Source of the DNA: Aotus nancymaae
Lineage: Eukaryota
Assembly (NCBI RefSeq): GCF_030222135.1
Contig: NW_026988420.1
Span: forward strand, 6,643,875 to 6,707,874
Direction: 5' to 3'
Length of the DNA: 64,000 bases
Shown here: positions 1-35,400 of the stretch, in pieces
Layout: every line of letters starts with the position of its first letter
How positions within the stretch are numbered: position 1 is the first letter of the stretch
The notes under the pieces: generated by a model
Databases searched by the model: none
Told to the model about the DNA's origin: nothing
The model's input: the letters and a program-made list of their open reading frames with translations, nothing else
Program-made: the position numbers and the translations under genes

Positions 1-1275
1 TTATATTTATGCTTCTGAGACAAAGCCACATATGGTTTCATTTCCCAAGCCTGTAGGTTTGTATTATCTATAATTATAGGAGATACCTTCTTCTCAAATG
101 CTGCTTTTGCACGATTCTGGTTCCATTCATGTGCTTCTCCTAAGTACTTTACATCAAACTGGTACTGTCCATTTATAAAAAAAAATCATCAGTACTAAGA
201 ATGACTCCACTTGGATTATCCTCTTGCAAAGTCCTTGCCAAAAAAGATTTTCCAGATCCTGGAAGTCCTCTGAGAAGAACAAGAACTAGTCCAACATAAG
301 ATGTCTTTTTTCTTACAATCTGAGAAACTGAGGTTTCTTGTACTTGATAAGGGCTTGTTCCAGCTTTATTTCTCCATACTTTTTTTGGGGAAGTGTGAGA
401 AATAACTGAGGGTGGAAATGTATGGTTGACAGATCTCCAGTGTGCAGCTGTGGTTACAACAGGAGCTACAAAGCCATGGTTTCCTTGGAAGAGGTCAAAC
501 GCAGGAATCATTGGATTCCACATCAGTGGAGGTGGAGGAGGCGACAGTAAGGGGAGAGGAGCGAGTACTGGGCAGTAACTTACATCTTTCCCCTTAGTTG
601 GCAGTTCAGGATGTTTGTGTGGCTTGAAGTTGAACCCTTCGGAAGGTAGAAACATATCAGACATTGGAATAGATTTCTGATCCCCACCCATACCTGGTAA
701 ATCAAGCCCTGGAAGGTTTAGAGAAGGCTGAGGTTCACTGGCATCCAAATCTACAGGGGTTTGAGAGAACTGAGCCTCAACATACTCAGATTCTAAAAGT
801 TCTTTCTGTTTTTGATTGAGACTGCTATCGCCCATGATGGAGTCACTTGTTACATTTAAAGAATTACTAAGAAGAGAATCTTCTCGGTGGTTACCTTCCA
901 AAGCCAATGTGTTATCCTTTATAAAACATCTGGACTCATTCAAAACTGAATGTGAAGGTAATGGACTTAAACTTAACGTAGAGGCAGAATTCTCTAAATT
1001 TTCACTGTTTAAATTCATATTTTGTGTAGAAAAAATAGGAGTCATATTACTGGAATCAAAATTTACAAACTCACTCGGGTCATTAAAACTATTAACATCT
1101 TGCGAAGGCAAAAGTGAGTATACTTGGTCATCAGGAGAAGAGTTCAATTTCTCAAAAGCATTCTGTATTAAAGAATCCAGGTCTTCAGTTAGCTGCATGT
1201 CCAAAAATGAATCCATTTTTGAAACTTCACTCTCTTCTTCAGGACGTTTTTCCATTATTTCACTTTCTGCTGCAC
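1..1275 (-). CDS. N4BP2L2: N4BP2L2-like large coding exon (exon 3), partial because it runs off the window start. It encodes a Ser/Pro-rich region followed by a P-loop (GLPGSGKS) polynucleotide-kinase-like domain. The frame is broken by a 1-bp deletion at 177-185.
   Basis: A minus-strand ORF at 173-1255 (plus in-frame extension to 1275) translates to ...[32 protein letters not shown]. The next frame, over 1-172, continues ...[55 protein letters not shown]. This is the N4BP2/N4BP2L1/L2 kinase-like domain signature; compare N4BP2L1 ...STDDFFF...EEAHEWNQKRA...[16 protein letters not shown]. The exon begins after the acceptor ...ccaagtag|GT at 1276/1275. Confidence 0.7.
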
Positions 1276-1379
1276 CTACTTGGTTCTCAGAAACAACGAA
1301 ACTTTATAAAGATGATTCTTCTGTCTTGGTATCAGTGGCAGATAATTCTAATAGACAATCCATAGCATTTTCAACTCAC
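1276..1379 (-). other. N4BP2L2: 104-nt intron (GTGAGT donor, polypyrimidine tract, TAG acceptor) between N4BP2L2-like exons 2 and 3
   Basis: Read on the minus strand, the junction is ...ACAACAACCT|GTGAGTTG...TTTCGTTGTTTCTGAGAACCAAGTAG|GTGCAGCA. Splicing joins the two reading frames exactly (split codon T|GT = Cys). An in-frame stop at 1348-1350 falls inside the intron. Confidence 0.6.
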
Positions 1380-1692
1380 AGGTTGTTGTGGGGATTAAAT
1401 GAGATAATCCATGAAAAAGTGTTGTGTACAAGAACTGGCACCTAGTAAGCACCCAATTAATGTTCCCTTTGAAATCACATTCAGAAAGCATCAAATACAC
1501 TACATCAGGATCCAGATCAGAAAATATCTCTGAGATACTGGTGAAGAGTTCTTCCTGATCAACTTTTGTCTCACCCATGGAAGGAAGAGTAGTGGTTGGC
1601 TCCTCACGAATAGCAACACGGGATACAACTTCCTTAGGGTTTGCAGTCTTCCGAAAAGGATTTCCCCCAAGATTTTTCCTTTGCCTTGGCAT
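1380..1692 (-). CDS. N4BP2L2: N4BP2L2-like coding exon 2 carrying the start codon (ATG at 1692-1690): MPRQRKNLGGNPFRKTANPKEVVSRVAIREEPTTT...EIFSDLDPDVVYLMLSECDFK...
   Basis: On the minus strand the ATG sits in the context gtcagaATGc. The frame stays open for 104 codons to the GTGAGT donor at 1379. A polypyrimidine-AG acceptor lies just upstream (about 1700-1712). The EIFSDLDPDVVYLMLSECDF stretch looks CUE/UBA-like. Confidence 0.55.
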
Positions 1693-1712
1693 TCTGACTT
1701 TCAAAACTAAAA

Positions 1713-1984
1713 TGTTCACCTTTTCTTAGTTAAAATGTTTGATATTTAAGTCATAATTCAAACAAAACAGCGTTAAATATCTTGCACAATCCAGCAGTAA
1801 AAAGACCTTTTAATTAAATTTCTATCATAGCTCTCTCCACCTTCCAGAACTGCACTGTCAATATGGCAGCCACCAGCAACATGTTCTGTCTGTCTAGCAT
1901 CTCTGCTGGCAACATGCTCATTAAGGCCACGGTTGATATATGCAAACTCTACAGCTCTTGTTGATACCCAACATGTCTTCTTAC
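1713..1984 (-). other. N4BP2L2: putative intron 1 of the N4BP2L2-like gene (about 270 nt)
   Basis: On the minus strand a GTAAGA donor at 1984-1979 follows the GC-rich 5'UTR segment (...GCTGCAGGAGCA|GTAAGAAG). A ...cattttagttttgaaag acceptor sits immediately 5' of the ATG. Confidence 0.35.
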
Positions 1985-2460
1985 TGCTCCTGCAGCGGGC
2001 CGAGGGCGTCGAAGCCGGTGCCGCGTAGCCGAGAGCACAAGGCGGCGCCGCGGGTCCGTAACCCTTTCCCGCCGGCGCCACTGTGCTCTCCGGCGCCGCG
2101 CCGGGCTAGCGAGCAGTTGCGCCGCGAGGGTAGAAGCGGCGAGCGCGCCCGGCGGCGAGATACTGCCGCTCTCCGTCCGGCCAGGGAAGAGCAGCCGCGC
2201 AGGAGCCCGCCGCGAGAGGGCGGGTAGGTGGCCGGGTGGGGAGGAGTCTCGAGGCGTCGGCAATGGCTGCCTCGTCGCCCAGGTGGACCGCCGCCCCGCC
2301 TCCCGAGCCCGCCGGCTGTTCGCCACGACCTCTCCTTCGTCCCCGGGCCCCGCCTCGGCGCGGCGGCCCTGGGGACCTGAGCCCGCGGGCGCTCTCACCT
2401 CTCCCGCTCCCTCAAGAGAGTAAGTCCTGCCCGGCCTCTGCTAACTTTAATTTGTTCTTC
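1960..2460. promoter_or_regulatory. CpG island / promoter and non-coding first exon of the minus-strand N4BP2L2-like gene, possibly bidirectional
   Basis: About 500 bp with very high GC and CpG density (gcgccgcgggtccg..., ccggcgccgcgccgggctagcgagc...). It is immediately 5' of the minus-strand gene, and AT-rich sequence starts abruptly at about 1980. Confidence 0.7.
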
Positions 2461-2768
2461 TAGTTCTTTGAGGTATAAAGTTAGGTTGTTTATTTGACAG
2501 ATTCTCCTTAATATAAGTGTTTACTTGTATAATCTTCCCTCTTCATACTGCTTTCTCTGTATCCCATAAGATTCATTACACTGTGTTTTTGTTTCATTTC
2601 TCTTCAGAAATTTTCCAATATTACTTGTGTAATCTTATTACAAAGGTTTCTTTTTTGACTCATAAGTTGTTTAAGAGCATGATAGAAATGGGAGGACAGC
2701 CCTGGTGATTCCCTCCTGCCCAGTCTTCTAGTATTTCACCCACCCTTTTGTGGATGAGTTGGGGTTAA

Positions 2769-3153
<385 letters not shown>

Positions 3154-3399
3154 TGAGCCCTGGGGTGACCTCAGGGACAGTGACTAGGCTTCATCCAGGG
3201 GCTCCCTGTCAAGGGGCTGTTGTGTAGGAGTGGGGGGGAAGACAAAAAAAATCCACCAGAGCTTTGTATTTTTGTTACATACTGTTTCTTTGATAATTTA
3301 TGTGATAATGAGGAAAAATGTCCTATTTTTATACTCCCAAAAAAATTTTTGTTAAGATTTGTTTTGTGGCATAACATATGGTCTATGCTAAAGAACGTT

Positions 3400-5085
<1,686 letters not shown>

Positions 5086-5764: not shown

Positions 5765-5955
5765 ATTGCATTTTAGGCTTTGGGGTACATGTGAAGAACA
5801 TGCAGGATTGTTGCATAGGTACATACACAGCAATGTGGTTTGCTGCCTTCCTCCCCATCACCTGTATCTGGCATTTCTCCCCATGTTATCCCTCCCCAAC
5901 TCCCCACCCCCACACTGTCCCTCCCCTAGGGGTTCTTTTCAATAGTTTGTCTCTT
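5765..5955 (-). mobile_element. L1 3'-end fragment (antisense)
   Basis: ttgcattttaggctttggggtacatgtgaagaacatgcaggattgttgcataggtacatacacagcaatgtggtttgctgcc...ccctcccc is the antisense form of the L1 3' terminal region. The same motif occurs at 32500-32650. Confidence 0.7.
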
Positions 5956-5999
5956 TGTTGATAACCTCATTTTGTACATGCATTATTTTCCTAATTTTG

Positions 6000-7200
6000 T
6001 TTTGTGGTTTGTGTTCTCTTTTAGCTCATTGAGCATCTTTAAGATGATTGTTTTAGATTATTTGTCAGGTAATTAATAGATCTCCATATCTTTAGGGTCA
6101 GTTTCTAGAGATTCATTTTGTTTCATTGATTGGGCCAGTTTCTCTCCTTCTTGGTATGCCTTGCAATCTTTTTTTAAGCTTTGGGCATTTCCGGATGGCT
6201 TTATACAAGGTAAGACCTTCACTATCAACCCGCTGGAGATTCTAGGGCTTTTTCCAACTTTTTTTGGCACCATGTCTTCTCTGGGCTGTTTATAATTCCC
6301 CAATTTAAGGTTTGCTTGTCTCTTTTCTGCAGCCTACAATCTCTTGCTCCCCTTGGTGTCTGTCTGTGGTACTACAGTCATATTGTTTCCATAACAAGCT
6401 GCGGCAGTCACCTTTGATCTCATTGACCCCAACTTGGCATCTAAACTGCTGTTCCCATCAGCACTCCAAGTCAGGAGAGATAGAAATCTGCTTCTTAGGT
6501 GAACTGTCAAAAGGCCTGAGTACTGGACCATGGTTGATTCACTTCTCTTTTTCTCTCTTGAGGGAGAAGAGGATTGGAAATGTTCTCCCAATTATACTGC
6601 AGTGTGCTAGGGATAAGGAGTAACTAGGGTAACAAAGAATCTCTCCTTGACCACACTTTAGTCAGATTCCTCTGAACCCTCTACTTAACCAGGCCTTGAC
6701 CTTTGAGCTCCTATATCCATCTTTGCATCACAAAACTGTTTCCTGCAGTTTTAGCAAGAATCTTCCACTCTTGATATCTAATCAAATTAATCATCCTCCA
6801 CCATCCCCCAGATGACATTTGATCACCCTGGCCTGCCTTCAGCAAGAACCCTGTCAAATCAGTTTTACCAGAATGTCACCCTTGCCTTGACATTGCCTCT
6901 TAGTAATTTTCCATCCACTGCTCACCCCCACCCCCCAACTCTGCTCTGACTATAAATCCCCACTTGTCTTGCTGTAACTATGACAATTGTCTTTGCTTTT
7001 CCTTACCAATGGCAAGCAAATTGCCACACAATTTCCTACCTGTTTCAGTGAATCTCTTGGCTTTGTGTACCTTTGGGTGCTGCAAACTTTCAACTGGTTT
7101 TTGGAGTTCTCAGAAAGGCAATTTTGTCCATATGATGTTGTTAAGTTGATGTCTCTGTAGGAGGATAAGGGTCTGGGATTTCCTATTCTGCCATCTTGCT
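6000..7200. repeat. possible old LTR/ERV-derived or other ancient interspersed repeat, family not assigned
   Basis: Unique-looking AT-rich sequence with LTR-like motifs (ctataaatcccc, ttgtcttgctgtaact). I have no confident match from memory. Confidence 0.15.
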
Positions 7201-9890: not shown

Positions 9891-10121
9891 AAAAAGAATA
9901 TCAGAACAAACCTAAAGAAATTGACAAGAAGGAATAATGAAGATAAAATAAATTAATGAATTAAACAAAGGAAAAAGTCAAATAGCAATAGATGAAGGGC
10001 TTATTCAAAAAAATAGACAAACCCTTGGTAAACCTGAGCAAGGAACAATTAAGAAAATTCAAATACAGAACAACAGACATGAGGAAGGGGTAATACATTA
10101 ATGAAATTCAAAGAATTATAA

Positions 10122-10415
10122 GAGGCCAGGCATGGTGGCTCATGTCTGTAATCCCAACACTTTGGGAGGCTGAGGCAGAAGCATCTCTTGAGGCCAGGAG
10201 TTAGAGACCAGCCTGGGCAACATAGCATGATCCTGTCTCTACAAATAGCCAGGCATGGTGGTGCATGCCTGTAGTGCCAGCTACTCAGAAGGCTGAAGCA
10301 GGAGGATCACTTGATTCCAGGAGCTTGATGCTCCAGGAAGCCACAATTGTGGCACTGCAATCCAGCCTGGGTGACAGAGCAAGACCCTATCTCAAAACAA
10401 TCAAACAAACAAACA
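10122..10415 (+). mobile_element. Alu, + orientation, with a (CAAA)n-like tail
   Basis: ggccaggcatggtggctcatgtctgtaatcccaacactttgggaggctgaggcag...cagcctgggtgacagagcaagaccctatctcaaaacaatcaaacaaacaaacaaac. Confidence 0.9.
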
Positions 10416-28778: not shown

Positions 28779-29343
28779 TTATTCTTAAGTTTCTGTTTTT
28801 CAATTCTAAAATAGGAAAATATATTTTCATAGGCAATATTTTAGATAACACAGCCCATGAATTTGAGAAGTAAGATTTGTGTGCAGTCTTGCTCCATACA
28901 TAACTGTCAAACCTAGGAGCAAAAAGAACATTGCGGGACCCAGGGTCTTAGAAAACGTTTTTTGTTTGCATTGGTAACTACTTTGTTGGCAGCCAAGACA
29001 ACCTGTAAGATTACTTTCTTGGTGGTTTTGGAAATATTGAAGTTCAGATTATTTACAACCTACCATACCTGAGTCCACTCACTCCTACTTTCAGTTGGGC
29101 ACTCAGCAGCACTGAGTTTCTGTGTGCCCCTCCTTTCTAAACTCACACTTGCCCTCATCACCAAGACCTGTTTGCTAAGTCAGAGATAGAGGTAGCATAT
29201 GATTTCAGCTTGGTTAAGCAGTTTTAAGAAGTTGGGATTCTGCTTAGGACAAAAAATATTCTTACCAGATTTCATTGGTACCGCTTTTCAAAGCCTTTAA
29301 AATTAATATGTTAATGAATATTTTAATCTTTTTTTTTTTTCAG

Positions 29344-30192
29344 AAGCTATCCTTAAATAATGACATATTTGAGGCAAACTCTGATAGCGATCAGCAAAGT
29401 GAGACAAAAGAAGATACTTCCCCAAAGAAGAAAAAGAAAAAATTAAGGCAGAGAGAAGAGAAAAGCCCAAATGATCTGAAAAAGAAAAAGGCAAAGGCTG
29501 GAAAACTAAAAGACAAGTCCAAACCAGACCTGGAGAGCTCCTTAGAAAGTTTAGTTTTTGATTTAAGGACAAAGAAAAGAATTTCGGAAGCCAGAGAAGA
29601 ACTAAAGGAGTCCAAAAAGCCCAAAAAAGATGAAGTAAAAGAAACAAAGGAATTAAAGAAAGTTAAAAAGGGTGAAATAAGAGATTTAAAGACGAAAACA
29701 AGAGAAGATCCCAAAGAAAATAGAAAAACAAAAAAAGAAAAATGGGTCGAATCCCAGATGGAATCTGAATCAAGTGTACTTAATGATTTGCCCTTTACAG
29801 AGGATGACAGTGAAGGGCTACTTTCTGAGAGCAGAGAAGAGAGACAAAAAACTAAAAGTGCAAGAGAGAGAGCAGGGCAGGACGCAGGGCTGGAGCTCAG
29901 CTTTGAAAAGCCCCTGGATGGTGCCTTGAGTGCTGAGGAGGAAACCGATGTTAGTGGCAGGAGGAAAAAGAAGACCCCGAGAAAGTCTGAGGACACTAGA
30001 GAGAGCAGGAAGCTAGAGAACAAGAACCCTTTCTTAGAGAAGAAAACTGTGCCTAAAAAGCAGAGGAATCAAGACAGAGGAAAAAGTGCTGCAGAGTTAG
30101 AGAAACTGGCACCTGTGTCTGCCCAAACTCCAAAGGGCTGGAGGTTGAGCGGGGAAGAGAGAAGCCTCCGGTCCACTGACTCAACCGAGGAG
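29344..30192 (+). CDS. MPHOSPH8: MPHOSPH8 exon 3, a large 849-nt exon (283 codons) encoding a Lys/Glu/Ser-rich low-complexity region: [42 protein letters not shown]...RSLRSTDSTEE
   Basis: Acceptor tttttttttttcag|AAGCTATCC at 29344 and donor ACCGAGGAG|gtaaggg at 30193. The frame continues from exon 2 and matches the long + ORF at 29275-30228. Confidence 0.9.
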
Positions 30193-31420
30193 GTAAGGGC
30201 CACAGAGGCATCAGAAAACCCGTGTTGAGTGGTCAAGACGTTTCACAAGCGAGGAAAGGGCAACAGCCAAGCTGTAAGAAAGTGTTATAACCATGAGTGG
30301 TTATAAATGAAGCTCCTCCATTGGACCCTGCGGCTTATCTCTTAGTCTCTGTCCTGTTTTCTCTTAGAATGATTATGACTAGAAAATTAAAGGCTAATTT
30401 CTGAACAAAAATCAGGATGGTTTTTAGAGGTACTCAGATGATATACGGAGCACTGTATACTCAGGTTTATAGCTTCATCAGCTGCTTTTATTAGCTTTTC
30501 ACATCCTACTTGGTTATTTCCCCTGTTGTCTTGAGTATACCACTATTTACTTAAATAATAGGACAAAAGTACATTAACATTACAAGTCTTTTAATGCTTG
30601 CAAAAATACATTTAATAAGAATTTGACCCATTATAAAAATTATTTTTATATGGCTTTGCAAAATGGAAATATTTTCCAAATTATGAGAATATTTATTTAA
30701 TATTTATCAAGGGCTATAAAAAACATCATTTCTTTCTATCCATTATTTCCAGTTTGGGGAATTTACTTTAAGGAGATCATTTTAAAAAGGGAAAAGCTGT
30801 GCAAACATAGTTATTTATGGCAGTATTATCTTCATTAATGAAAAATGGATAGCAATCTAACTTTCTAGCCATAGAAGAAATGGTTAAGGAAATATTGATA
30901 TGTCAACTTGGGGACTATTAGAACTATTGAAATATTAATTATTAGGTCAGTGTAGCAAAATGGAACAGTTTAGAAAATGCAGTGGAGAAGAAAACCCTAC
31001 ATAAATATGAATACAGTCAGGTAAAAATATCTGTAGTGTTAATAAAAATGAATTTTAAAAAAGATTATCCATGCAAAAGTACAAGGACCAGAACAGGGAA
31101 CATGGAGAAGTAAAAATAGTCATGGTTGGTTAAGACTATGGGTGGAAAACTTTTTTAGAATTTTATTTTTTTAATAATAAAATTCCTAAAAGAGGGTGGA
31201 AAAACTGGTATTGAGTTTTGAATTTGATATTTTGTGAATTATATGGTTGACTGAGGAAGCAAAATCCTTTTGTGTGAAAAGAATTTAGTGATCAGTGATC
31301 ATGTACGACAGTATACAAGGGTGGTTCCCTGAAGCCACAAACCTGTATTTTACGTTCTCAAATAAATATACAGTGTCAACTCTTTATCCATTATTGTTTT
31401 GGATATCATGTCATTTTCAG

Positions 31421-32479: not shown

Positions 32480-35400
32480 GGGGGTTATTTTTTTTAATTG
32501 CTCTTTAGGTTCTAGGGTACATGTGCAGAATATGTAGGGTTGTTGCATAGGTACATATATGGCAATGTGGTTTGCTGCCTCCATCCCCCCGTCACCTCTA
32601 TCTGGCATTTCTCCCCATGTTATCCCTCCCCAACCTCCCTACCCCCACTGTCCCTCTCCTATTCCCCCCAAACAGACCCCAGTGTGTGATGCTTCCCTCC
32701 CTGTGTCCATGTATTCTCATTGTTCAACACCCATGTATGAGTGAGAACATGTGCCGTTTGATTTTCTGTTCTTGGGTCAGTTTGCTCAGAATGATGGTTT
32801 CCAGGGTCATCCATGTCCCTACAAAGGACACGAACTCGTTTTTTATGGCTGCATAGTATTCCATGGTGTATATGTGCCATATTTTCTTTGTCCAGTCTAT
32901 CATCGATGGGCATTTGGGTTGGTTCCAGGTCTTTACTAGTGTAAACAATGCTGCAGTGAACATATGTGTGTGCATGTGTCTTTATAATAGAACAATTTAT
33001 AATCCTTTGGATATATACTCAGTAATGGGATTGCTGGGTCAAATGGATTCTATTTCTAGGTCCTTGAGAAATCGCCACACTGTCTTCCACAATGGTTGAA
33101 TTTACACTCCCACCAATTCTATGCTAATTTTCACTCCCACCAACAGTATAGAAGTGTTCCTATTTCTTTACATCCTCTCCAGCATCTTAATAATTGTCTC
33201 CAGATTCTTTAATAATCGCCATTCTAACTGGTATGAGATGGTATCTCAATGTGGTTTTGATTTGCATTTCTCTAATGACCAGTGATGAGTATTTTTTCAT
33301 ATGTTTGTTTGCCTCAGATGTGTCTTCTTTTGAAAAGTGTCTGTTCATGTCCTTTGCCCACTTTTGAATGGGTTTGTTTGTTTATTTCTTGTAAATCTAT
33401 TTTAGTTCTTTGTAGATTCTGGGTATTAGCCCTTTGTCAGATGGGTAGATTGCAAAAATGTTTTCCCAGCCTGTTCATTGCTGGTTCACTCTAATGATTG
33501 TTTCTTTTGCTATACAGATGCTCTGGAGTTTAATTAGATCCCAGTTGTCTATTTTGGCTTTTGTTGCCAATGCTCTTGGTGTTTTAGTCATGAAGATCTT
33601 CTTATGCCTATGTCCTGAATGGTTTTGCCTAGGTTTTCTTCTAGGGTTTTTATGGTGTTAGTTCTTAAATTGTTTAAGTCTTTAATCCATCTGGAGTTAA
33701 TGTTAGTTTAAGGTGTCAGGAAGGGGTCCAATTTCTGCTTTCTGCACATGGCTAGCCAGTTTTCCCAACACCATTTATTCAGCAGGGAATCCTTTCCCCA
33801 TTGCTTGTTTTTGTCAGGTTTGTCAAAGATCAGATGGTTGTAGATGTGTGGCGTTGCCTCTGAGGCCTCCGTTCTGTTCCATTGGTCCATATCTCTGTTT
33901 TGGTACCAGTACCATGCTGTTTTGATTACTGTAGACTTGTAGTATAGCTTGAAGTCAGGTAGCCTCTAGCTTTGTTCTTTCTATTTAGGATTGTCTTGGC
34001 TATGTGGGCTCTCTTTTGGTTCCATATGAAGTTTAAGGTGGTTTTTTTCCAGTTGTGTGAAGAGGGTCCTAGGTAGCTTGATGGGGATAGCATTGAATCT
34101 ACAAATTACTTTGGGCAGTGTGGCCATTTTCACAATATTGATTCTTCCTAACCGTGAACATGGAATATTTTTCCATTTGATTGTGTCCTCTCTTATTTCC
34201 TTGAGCAGTGGTTTGTAGTTCTCCTTGAAGAGGTCCTTTACATGCTTTGTTAGTTGTATTCCTAGGTATTTTATTCTCTTTGTAGCAATTGTGAATGGCA
34301 GTTTGTTCTTGATTTGGCTGTCTTTAAGTCTGTTGGTGTATAGGAATGCTGCTGATTTCTGCACATTGATTTTGTATCCTGAGACTTTGCTGAAGTTGCT
34401 TATCAGTTTCAGGAGATTTTGGGCTGAGACGATGGGGTCTTCTAAATATACAGTTATGTTGTCTGCAAATAGAGACAATTTGACTTCCTCCTTTCCTAAT
34501 CGAATACCCTTTATTTCTTTTTCTTGCCTGATTGCTCTGGCTAGAACTTCCAATACTATATTGAATAAGTGTGGTGAGAGAGGGTATCCTTGTCTAGTGC
34601 CAGATTTCAAAGAGAATGCTTCCAGTTTTTGCCTATTCCGTATTATATTGGCTGTGGGTTTGTCATAAATAGCTTTTATCATTTTGAGATATGTTCCGTC
34701 GATACCTAGTTTATTGAGAGTGTTTAGCATAAAGGGCTGTTGAATTTTGTCAAAGGCCTTCTCTGCATTTATTGAGATAATCATGTGGTTTTTGTCTTTG
34801 GTTCTGTTTATGTGGTGGATTACATTTATAAACTTGGGTATGTTGAACCAGCCTTGCATCCCCAGGATGAAGCCTACTTGATCGTGATGGGTAAGCTTTT
34901 TGATGTGCTGTTGCATTCAGTTTGTCAAGATTTTATTGAAGATTTTTGCATCTATGTTCATCATGGATATTGGTCTGAAGTTTTCTTTTTTTGTTGAGTC
35001 TCTGCCAGGTTTTGGTTTCAGGATGATGTTGATCTCATAAAATGATTTGGGAAGGATTCCCTCTTTTTGGATTGTTTGGAATAGTTTCAGAAGGAGTAGT
35101 ACCAACTCCTCTTTGTATGTCTGGTAGAATTCGGCTGTGAACCCATCTGGACCTGAGGGTTTTTTTTTTTGAGTGGTAGGCTATTAATTGCTCCCTCAAT
35201 TTCAGCCCTTGTTATTGGTCTATTCAGAGTTTCGACTTCTTCCTGGTTTAGGCTTAGGAGGGTGCAAGTGTCCAGGAATTTATCTATTTCTTCCAGGTTT
35301 ACTGTTTTATGTGCATAGAGTTGTTTGTAGTAATCTATTATGGTAGTTTGTATTTCTGTGGAATTGGTGGTAATATCCCCTTTATCATTTTTTATTGCAT

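What the first reader, a model, noticed from the sequence alone, without database searches (positions are those of the whole stretch)
170..190. A 1-bp frameshift in an A9 homopolymer truncates the kinase-like domain of the N4BP2L2-like ORF
The minus-strand reading frame runs ...VILSTDDFF and then hits TAA at 175-173. The next frame continues immediately with the conserved ...[23 protein letters not shown]...[17 protein letters not shown]. Restoring one T to the T8 run (A9 at 177-185 on the plus strand, so A10 expected) gives [14 protein letters not shown]. That is an uninterrupted domain, and it matches the DDFFF motif of the paralog N4BP2L1. The exon is therefore collinear except for a -1 indel in a homopolymer. 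As read, the product would stop right after the Walker-A motif and lose the rest of the kinase-like domain. The cause is a genuine inactivating mutation (a pseudogenised duplicate), a polymorphic indel, or a homopolymer sequencing error.
Basis: seen in the sequence. Interest (0 to 1): 0.6.

Follow-up and report, generated by a model that had tools for sequence, protein, structure and literature searches.

The report
Frameshift inside an N4BP2 processed pseudogene
The frameshift is real in the sequence, but it lies in a dead, intron-less retro-copy of the N4BP2 gene (not N4BP2L2) that already has two earlier reading-frame breaks, so it is ordinary pseudogene decay.

Summary
The plus strand has A9 at 177-185. 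The minus-strand frame reads ...[10 protein letters not shown], then TAA at 175-173. The -1 frame continues [12 protein letters not shown]...

The interpretation needs three corrections.

1. The parent gene is N4BP2 (B3BP, the mammalian Cue2 homologue), not N4BP2L2.

2. This is not an exon. Window 2436..1 (minus strand) is a processed pseudogene. At least six parental exon junctions are fused. In the titi-monkey and human-like N4BP2 genes, four of these hold GT-AG introns of 1.9-4.3 kb. The copy sits inside an old L1, about 13 kb upstream of MPHOSPH8.

3. The ancestral sequence was not A10 (DDFFF). It was GAT GAT TAT TTT TAT ATA (DDYFYI), identical in titi and the human-like contig; the non-primate cDNA differs only by a synonymous TAC. 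The T-run arose from one A>T substitution plus a 1-bp deletion.

The frame was already broken upstream, by a retro-copied 92-nt cassette exon (1466-1375) and by a CAA>TAA stop (1306-1304). Window-specific coding changes run 22 nonsynonymous to 6 synonymous, against 5 to 8 in the parent, which indicates relaxed constraint. I could not test whether the run length is an assembly error, but it would not change the verdict. Low interest.

The parts
177..185 (-). T9 run on the coding strand (A9 on the plus strand). This is the frameshift lesion. The parent has TTATTTTTAT (10 nt) and the window has TTTTTTTTT (9 nt), which is one A>T substitution plus a 1-bp deletion.
   Evidence: The window-specific substitution is at 178 and the gap at 184 in the MAFFT placement. 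Which of the two A's was deleted and which substituted cannot be resolved.
173..175 (-). TAA stop reached in the shifted frame (...DDFFL*).
110..233 (-). Retro-copied parental exon 3 (TLQEDNPSG...NQNR). It holds the lesion.
   Evidence: 98.4% identity to L001:6257-6381 and 97.6% to titi L002:10030-10154. Both parental exons are flanked by AG/GT.
234..1374 (-). Retro-copied large parental exon (VENAMDCLL...GSGKSFLAR). It includes Walker A GLPGSGKS at 268-245 and a window-specific 3-bp deletion in the poly-Pro tract near 543/542.
   Evidence: 92.9% identity to L001:2174-3317 and 96.1% to L002:5803-6946.
1304..1306 (-). In-frame premature stop TAA. The parental codon is CAA (Gln, codon 100), and the C>T change is window-specific.
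1375..1466 (-). Retro-copied 92-nt cassette exon, MIR-like by my recollection of the MIR consensus. Its length is not a multiple of 3, so the frame from the ATG shifts and stops at TAG 1350-1348.
   Evidence: 93.7% identity to L001:135-225 and 97.9% to L002:3748-3839, both with canonical AG...GT. It is absent from the non-primate cDNA L003.
1467..1806 (-). Retro-copied parental exon with 5'UTR tail and start codon (ATG at 1692-1690; MPRQRKNLGG...CDFK).
   Evidence: 96.2% identity to titi L002:934-1276. Collinear with cDNA L003:105-445.
1807..1885 (-). Extra 5'UTR segment of about 79 nt. It is absent from cDNA L003 and is not the titi intron sequence upstream of the ATG exon. It is probably another cassette exon of the source transcript.
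   Evidence: The boundary is good to about 2 nt.
1886..1985 (-). 5'UTR exon of the source transcript.
   Evidence: The BLAST match covers window 1982-1915 against cDNA L003:6-73 at 86.8%; the pairwise alignment extends it.
1986..2436 (-). GC-rich 5' end of the copy (GC 76%, CpG obs/exp 1.04, measured over 1990-2435). I take it to be the transcribed part of the parental CpG-island first exon. Inferred, not verified.
   Evidence: It abuts the interrupted L1 ORF2 sequence at about 2437. No parental exon 1 sequence was available.
21..109 (-). Retro-copied parental exon 4 ([30 protein letters not shown]).
   Evidence: 95.6% identity to titi L002:14414-14502, which is flanked by AG/GT.
1..20 (-). 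Start of the next parental exon (SQKHKY...). The copy runs off the window, so its 3' end, poly(A) tail and target-site duplication are not visible.
   Evidence: Collinear with cDNA L003 down to window position 1. It differs from the titi intron that follows exon 4.
2437..3990 (-). Old L1 (ORF2 endonuclease-domain remnants) into which the copy inserted. The L1 is itself interrupted by a TMEM39-like fragment.
   Evidence: Translations of 3815-3479 match the L1 ORF2 endonuclease domain (PDB 7n8s/1vyb, E=3e-27). Reading ...NNLTLYLKELEEQIKVSR at 2500-2437 as L1 ORF2 rests on my recollection of the L1 consensus.

Best explanation
Window 2436..1 (minus strand) is an L1-mediated processed pseudogene (retrocopy) of N4BP2. 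N4BP2 is the CUE / PNK-like kinase / Smr protein also called B3BP.

Origin (inferred from the anatomy). A spliced N4BP2 transcript was reverse-transcribed and inserted into an old L1, about 13 kb upstream of MPHOSPH8, in a New-World-monkey-like primate lineage. The source transcript carried a 92-nt MIR-like cassette exon, and probably an extra 5'UTR segment. The 92-nt exon shifts the frame, so the copy could not encode full-length N4BP2 from its own ATG at birth.

Decay (shown by comparison with the parents). Since insertion the copy has drifted without constraint. It gained a CAA>TAA stop at 1306-1304, a 3-bp deletion, about 30 substitutions, and the lesion in the finding. At that site the parental TAT TTT TAT (Tyr-Phe-Tyr) lost both A's, one by A>T substitution and one by a 1-bp deletion. 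This created a T9 run and shifted the frame into TAA at 175-173.

The frameshift is therefore one of several ordinary neutral lesions. It has no consequence for any protein.
For: Intron loss:
- The window is collinear with the non-primate cDNA L003 from 1982 to 1.
- In titi genomic DNA (L002) the same segments are separate exons. Introns of 2.5, 2.0, 3.1 and 4.3 kb lie between them, and every exon has AG/GT flanks.
- In the human-like contig L001 the corresponding introns are 1.9 and 2.9 kb.

Parent identity:
- Full-length hits are named NEDD4-binding protein 2. Pfam finds CUE plus AAA_33.
- The kinase part is 93-97% identical to mammalian N4BP2, against 60-65% to N4BP2L2 and N4BP2L1.
- The domain architecture of N4BP2 is described in PMC3200294 and PMC6598757.

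Different locus:
- Window 6087-37738 is collinear with the titi MPHOSPH8 contig L004 at 90-94% identity.
- The MPHOSPH8 exon lies at 29275-30228.
- An L1 endonuclease remnant flanks the copy.

Ancestral state at the site:
- GATGATTATTTTTATATAAATGG in L001 and titi. The cDNA differs only by a synonymous TAC.
- DDYFY in the N4BP2 proteins P0001, P0002 and P0025.

Other lesions: the 92-nt exon, the TAA at 1306-1304, and the 3-bp deletion.

Relaxed constraint: window-specific coding changes run 22 nonsynonymous to 6 synonymous (codon positions 8/14/6). The titi parent runs 5 to 8. Fisher p=0.017.
Against: - The 3' end lies outside the window, so the poly(A) tail and target-site duplication cannot be seen.
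- The GC-rich 5' 450 nt could not be matched to a parental first exon.
- CpG obs/exp of 1.04 in that segment is high for DNA assumed to be methylated and decaying.
- Exon 3 is less diverged (2 differences in 127 nt) than the large exon (about 4-7%). This is within the sampling range if the parental kinase exon is highly conserved.
- The species of the window and of L001 are inferred, not given.
Confidence: 0.95

Rival explanations
1. The run length is a homopolymer assembly or sequencing error. The true sequence is A10, which locally restores the frame as DDFFFING.
For: Runs of 9-10 A or T are error-prone in many sequencing technologies (general knowledge). One extra T does restore the downstream frame.
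Against: - This needs two independent A>T substitutions within 10 nt plus an error, against one substitution plus one deletion.
- The copy has another window-specific indel, and indels are expected in a neutrally drifting copy.
- Even if true, nothing changes. The copy is intron-less and is broken upstream by the 92-nt exon and the TAA at 1306-1304.
- No independent assembly could be found.
Confidence: 0.1
2. This is a recent inactivating or polymorphic frameshift in a functional N4BP2-family gene or duplicate, so the gene was working until this mutation.
For: Walker A (GLPGSGKS) and the downstream kinase motifs are well preserved. Exon 3 differs from the parent only at this site.
Against: - No introns at any of the six parental exon junctions examined.
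- The frame from the ATG is broken twice upstream.
- The nonsynonymous to synonymous ratio of 22:6 indicates no purifying selection.
- The locus is the MPHOSPH8 upstream region inside an L1.
- The intact intron-containing parent exists elsewhere in a related genome.
Confidence: 0.02
3. This is a programmed -1 ribosomal frameshift. The lesion creates U UUU UUA, the HIV-1-type slippery heptamer, directly before UAA, and the -1 frame is the kinase frame. A ribosome reading the 360-codon ORF from Met at 1255 could slip and make ...DDFFL-INGQYQ...
For: The heptamer is in the correct register. X is T182, XXY is TTT at 181-179, and YYZ is TTA at 178-176. The -1 frame is open down to the window edge.
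Against: - There is no stimulatory structure downstream. The 100 nt after the site fold at -15 kcal/mol, z=0.04 against shuffles.
- The heptamer is not conserved. The parents have UAU UUU UAU.
- The substitution pattern is neutral.
- The locus is a retrocopy with no evidence of expression.
Confidence: 0.01

Closest known systems
Mammalian processed pseudogenes (L1-mediated retrocopies of spliced mRNAs)
   Same: Intron-less and collinear with cDNA, 5'UTR included. Inserted at an unrelated locus, inside an L1. Carries stops, frameshifts and small indels, with near-neutral nonsynonymous to synonymous ratios. A clear L1-mediated insertion lies in the same window: a 7SL retro-pseudogene with an A19 tail and an 11-bp target-site duplication.
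   Different: Poly(A) tail and target-site duplication cannot be seen because the 3' end is off the window. The copy derives from a non-canonical isoform carrying a frame-shifting cassette exon.
N4BP2 (B3BP), the parental gene: CUE / PNK-like P-loop kinase / DUF1771 / Smr nuclease protein, mammalian homologue of yeast Cue2 and C. elegans NONU-1
   Same: About 96% nucleotide identity to the titi N4BP2 exons. Same N-terminal region, CUE-like segment, Walker A and kinase motifs (PMC3200294, PMC6598757).
   Different: No introns. A 92-nt extra exon, a premature TAA and a 1-bp frameshift. Tyr-Phe-Tyr is changed. The C-terminal two-thirds, including Smr, are not in the window.
N4BP2L2 and N4BP2L1
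   Same: They share the AAA_33 / PNK-like kinase domain. N4BP2L1 does carry STDDFFF (P0036).
   Different: Only the roughly 95-aa kinase domain aligns, at 60-65% identity. The 436 aa upstream of it do not match them.

Membership tests
Processed pseudogene (retrocopy) | Parental introns are absent, and the sequence is collinear with spliced mRNA across exon junctions. | tested here: met
   Six junctions are fused: 1807|1806, 1467|1466, 1375|1374, 234|233, 110|109 and 21|20. The titi parent has GT-AG introns of 2.5, 2.0, 3.1 and 4.3 kb at four of them, and the human-like L001 has 1.9 and 2.9 kb. cDNA L003 is collinear.
Processed pseudogene (retrocopy) | Lies at a locus different from the intron-containing parent. 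| tested here: met
   The window is collinear with the titi MPHOSPH8 contig L004. The copy is embedded in an L1. The titi parent is on another record, CM080832.1.
Processed pseudogene (retrocopy) | 3' poly(A) tract. | not testable with these tools
   The copy runs off window position 1 within the coding sequence.
Processed pseudogene (retrocopy) | Flanking target-site duplications. | not testable with these tools
   Only the 5' junction (about 2436/2437) is in the window.
Processed pseudogene (retrocopy) | Disabling lesions and loss of purifying selection. | tested here: met
   TAA at 1306-1304, a 1-bp deletion at 177-185, and a 92-nt frame-shifting exon. Nonsynonymous to synonymous is 22:6, against 5:8 in the parent, p=0.017.
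Functional N4BP2-family P-loop (AAA_33 / PNK-like) kinase gene | Walker A motif GxxxxGK[ST]. | tested here: met
   GLPGSGKS at 268-245. Pfam AAA_33 scores 4.3e-13 on the repaired translation.
Functional N4BP2-family P-loop (AAA_33 / PNK-like) kinase gene | Uninterrupted reading frame through the kinase domain from a start codon. | tested here: not met
   Stops at 1350-1348 (after the 92-nt exon), 1306-1304 and 175-173.
   Proteins named N4BP2L2 cover only 18-27% of the query at about 60% identity. Proteins named N4BP2 cover 93-100%.
Programmed -1 ribosomal frameshift site | Slippery heptamer X XXY YYZ in register. | tested here: met
   T TTT TTA at 182-176.
Programmed -1 ribosomal frameshift site | Downstream stimulatory RNA structure, and conservation of the site. 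| tested here: not met
   Fold z-score 0.04. The parents carry TAT TTT TAT.

The most novel reading that the evidence does not exclude
The retrocopy may not be inert. Its 5' 450 nt keep full CpG-island character (GC 76%, CpG obs/exp 1.04), which could mean it stays unmethylated and drives transcription about 13 kb upstream of MPHOSPH8. The product could be a non-coding RNA. It could also be the 360-codon ORF from Met at 1255, extended into the kinase frame by slippage on the newly created U UUU UUA heptamer.
Probability: 0.03. Interest if true: 0.35.

Novelty: already known. Interest (0 to 1): 0.06.

Why it matters
It matters mainly for annotation. This locus should be labelled an N4BP2 processed pseudogene. 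It should not be labelled N4BP2L2, and it should not be reported as a frameshifted or low-quality coding gene. No homopolymer 'correction' should be applied to rescue an ORF.

There is one small side value. The copy is a fossil record that a germline N4BP2 transcript included a 92-nt MIR-like cassette exon that introduces a premature stop. That exon's splice sites are conserved between the titi and the human-like parent genes.

Tried and rejected
- Independent assemblies of the same retrocopy, to count the A's. An exact look-up of the 360-aa ORF product found nothing on record.
- A metagenome scan with a junction-spanning 28-mer found 0 hits.
- A metagenome scan with a site pattern allowing 8-11 bases in the run also found 0 hits. 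That pattern should have matched the parental exon in L001's contig, so the scanned collection evidently does not hold it.
- A literature search for 'N4BP2L2 pseudogene' returned only incidental mentions.
- I tried to show the 92-nt exon is an interspersed MIR repeat by finding other copies in the window and loci. Only the exon itself and its orthologues were found. The MIR label therefore rests on my recollection of the consensus.
- CpG decay in the coding part was uninformative. There are only 5 ancestral CpGs, of which 1 is lost.
- Programmed frameshifting was considered and rejected.
I dropped it once the source names, coverage and domain content of the hits were compared.

Full report
**1. 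The observation**

The plus strand at 171-190 reads ATTTATAAAAAAAAATCATC, so A9 occupies 177-185. On the minus strand the codons run GAT GAT TTT TTT TTA TAA. The upstream frame is a 376-codon open stretch from 1303 to 176. It ends ...[31 protein letters not shown] and stops at TAA 175-173.

The frame displaced by one base towards the 5' side reads [61 protein letters not shown], down to the window edge. Inserting one T gives [11 protein letters not shown].

**2. Which gene it is**

I built a conceptual 533-aa translation. It uses the ATG at 1692, skips a 92-nt insert, replaces one stop with X and adds one T. Pfam finds AAA_33 at residues 440-532 (E 4.3e-13) and a weak CUE match at 48-87.

In the protein database, the hits that cover the whole query carry the name NEDD4-binding protein 2:
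- P0002 covers 93% of the query at 73% identity.
- P0025, from Plecturocebus cupreus (the titi monkey), is 95% identical over the kinase part.
- Fish N4BP2 entries carry CUE + AAA_33, and one also carries Smr.

Proteins named N4BP2L2 or N4BP2L1 cover only 15-27% of the query, which is the kinase domain. On the kinase domain alone, identity is 93-97% to mammalian N4BP2 and 60-65% to N4BP2L2 and N4BP2L1.

N4BP2 is the CUE / PNK-kinase / DUF1771 / Smr protein, the mammalian homologue of yeast Cue2 (PMC3200294, PMC6598757). The source gene is therefore N4BP2, not N4BP2L2.

**3. It is not an exon but a retrocopy**

The window is primate DNA, with 11 Alu 5' heads. Two genomic copies of the intron-containing parent were retrieved.
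- L001 is a 19-kb contig carried in a JGI metagenome. Its protein, P0003, matches my recollection of human N4BP2, so I call it human-like. This is an inference.
- L002 is the N4BP2 locus of the titi monkey assembly GCA_040437455.1.

The table gives each parental exon in titi L002, the window segment it matches, and the identity.

| Parental exon | Titi L002 | Window | Identity |
|---|---|---|---|
| ATG exon | 934-1276 | 1806-1467 | 96.2% |
| 92-nt cassette exon | 3748-3839 | 1466-1375 | 97.9% |
| Large exon | 5803-6946 | 1374-234 | 96.1% |
| Exon 3 | 10030-10154 | 233-110 | 97.6% |
| Exon 4 | 14414-14502 | 109-21 | 95.6% |

Every one of these exons has AG...GT flanks. The introns between them are 2.5, 2.0, 3.1 and 4.3 kb.

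L001 shows the same cassette exon, large exon and exon 3, with introns of 1.9 and 2.9 kb. In the window these segments abut each other directly.

A non-primate cDNA contig (L003) is collinear with window 1982..1. It lacks only the 92-nt cassette exon and a 5'UTR segment of about 79 nt at 1885-1807. The sequence on the far side of junctions 1807|1806 and 21|20 also differs from the titi introns. That makes six fused junctions in all.

**4. Where it sits**

Upstream of about 2436 the minus strand carries L1 ORF2 sequence. Translations of 3815-3479 match the L1 endonuclease domain (PDB 7n8s/1vyb, E=3e-27).

Window 6087-37738 is collinear, at 90-94% identity, with the titi contig that carries MPHOSPH8 (L004). 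The ORF at 29275-30228 (+) is the large MPHOSPH8 exon, 90% identical to the titi protein.

The N4BP2 copy therefore lies inside an old L1, roughly 13 kb upstream of MPHOSPH8 and on the opposite strand. This is not the N4BP2 locus. The 3' end of the copy is beyond window position 1, so the poly(A) tail and target-site duplication cannot be checked.

**5. What happened at the A9 run**

L001 and titi both read GAT GAT TAT TTT TAT ATA AAT GG (DDYFYING). The non-primate cDNA is the same apart from a synonymous TAC for the second Tyr. The window reads GAT GAT TTT TTT T-T ATA AAT GG.

The N4BP2 proteins P0001, P0002 and P0025 have DDYFY. A bird N4BP2-like protein and a fish N4BP2L2 both keep DDYF.

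The ancestral ten bases TTATTTTTAT became TTTTTTTTT. One A was substituted by T and the other was deleted. Which A suffered which change cannot be resolved.

Its match to the STDDFFF of N4BP2L1 (P0036) is coincidental. Two A>T substitutions followed by homopolymer slippage, or by an assembly error, is possible but less parsimonious.

**6. It is not the first or only lesion**

- The retro-copied 92-nt cassette exon is not a multiple of three. From the ATG at 1692 the frame runs ...CDFK-GNINWVL... and stops at TAG 1350-1348. The copy could not encode full-length N4BP2 from its own start codon even at birth.
- Codon 100 is TAA at 1306-1304, where titi and L001 have CAA.
- A window-specific 3-bp deletion lies in the poly-proline tract near 543/542.

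**7. Mode of evolution and rough age**

Over 1,356 sites aligned among the window, titi and L001, the counts are as follows.
- Window-specific: 30 substitutions.
- Titi-specific: 13.
- L001 differing from both: 55.
- Of those 55, 21 are derived states shared by the window and titi, polarised with the non-primate cDNA.

The source transcript therefore came from a platyrrhine-type N4BP2.

In the coding part, the window-specific changes are 22 nonsynonymous and 6 synonymous, at codon positions 8/14/6. The titi-parent changes are 5 and 8. Fisher p=0.017. This is the signature of relaxed constraint.

The window-specific divergence of about 2.2% is less than half of the roughly 8% noncoding divergence between the window and the titi MPHOSPH8 region. 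The insertion probably post-dates the split of this species' lineage from titi. That is a rough inference, because exonic and intergenic mutation rates differ.

**8. Rival explanations**

- *Assembly error in the run length.* I could not test this. An exact-product look-up and two metagenome scans found nothing. It is irrelevant to the verdict.
- *A recently inactivated functional gene.* This is excluded by the missing introns, the upstream breaks and the neutral substitution pattern.
- *Programmed -1 frameshifting.* The lesion happens to create U UUU UUA in register, directly before UAA, and the -1 frame is the kinase frame. However, the downstream 100 nt fold no better than shuffles (z=0.04). 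The heptamer is also absent from the parents.

**9. Verdict**

This is an ordinary processed pseudogene of N4BP2. The frameshift is one of its neutral decay lesions. The kind of feature is already known, and interest is low.

One item remains unexplained. The 5' 450 nt keep CpG obs/exp of 1.04 at 76% GC. No parental first exon was available for comparison, so I cannot say whether CpGs have been preserved by hypomethylation.

Noticed in passing
window 22135-22476 (7SL body 22166-22465, minus strand): A full-length 7SL/SRP RNA copy (Rfam RF00017, 219.5 bits, model 1-299/299). It has an A19 tail and an 11-bp target-site duplication, AAGATGTTCTT. The titi orthologous site is empty (aaatttaagacgttctttgtgataac). 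This is a lineage-specific, L1-mediated 7SL retro-pseudogene.
   Followed up: yes
window ~2895-3155 (+ strand): An 87-aa open stretch ending in a stop matches the C-terminus of Pfam Tmp39 (TMEM39 family; profile 351-422 of 422, E=5e-27). It sits in non-L1 sequence that interrupts the old L1. It is possibly a 5'-truncated TMEM39 retrocopy fragment. An A8 run lies at 3244-3251.
   Followed up: partly
window 1375-1466 (-); L001:135-225; L002:3748-3839: The retrocopy preserves a 92-nt cassette exon of N4BP2 between the first coding exon and the large exon. By my recollection it matches the MIR consensus. It has canonical splice sites in both the human-like and titi genes. Including it introduces a premature stop, so it looks like a conserved 'poison' exon recorded by retroposition.
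   Followed up: partly
window 1990-2435 (-): The GC-rich 5' end of the copy has GC 76% and CpG obs/exp 1.04, with no visible CpG decay. The parental exon 1 was not available for comparison.
   Followed up: partly
window 29275-30228 (+), and 6087-37738 generally: The large exon of MPHOSPH8 (90% aa identity to titi MPHOSPH8, preceded by a polypyrimidine tract and AG). The region is collinear with the titi MPHOSPH8 contig at 90-94% identity. GC-rich ORF-like stretches at 15461-16355 may mark the MPHOSPH8 promoter CpG island.
   Followed up: partly
window 33981-34916 (-): A 311-aa open L1 ORF2 reverse-transcriptase segment. It belongs to a younger L1 than the one that hosts the N4BP2 copy.
   Followed up: no
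window 176-182 (-): The frameshift lesion creates T TTT TTA, the HIV-1-type -1 slippery heptamer, in register and directly before the TAA. I judge it a coincidence: there is no downstream structure (z=0.04) and the heptamer is not present in the parents.
   Followed up: yes
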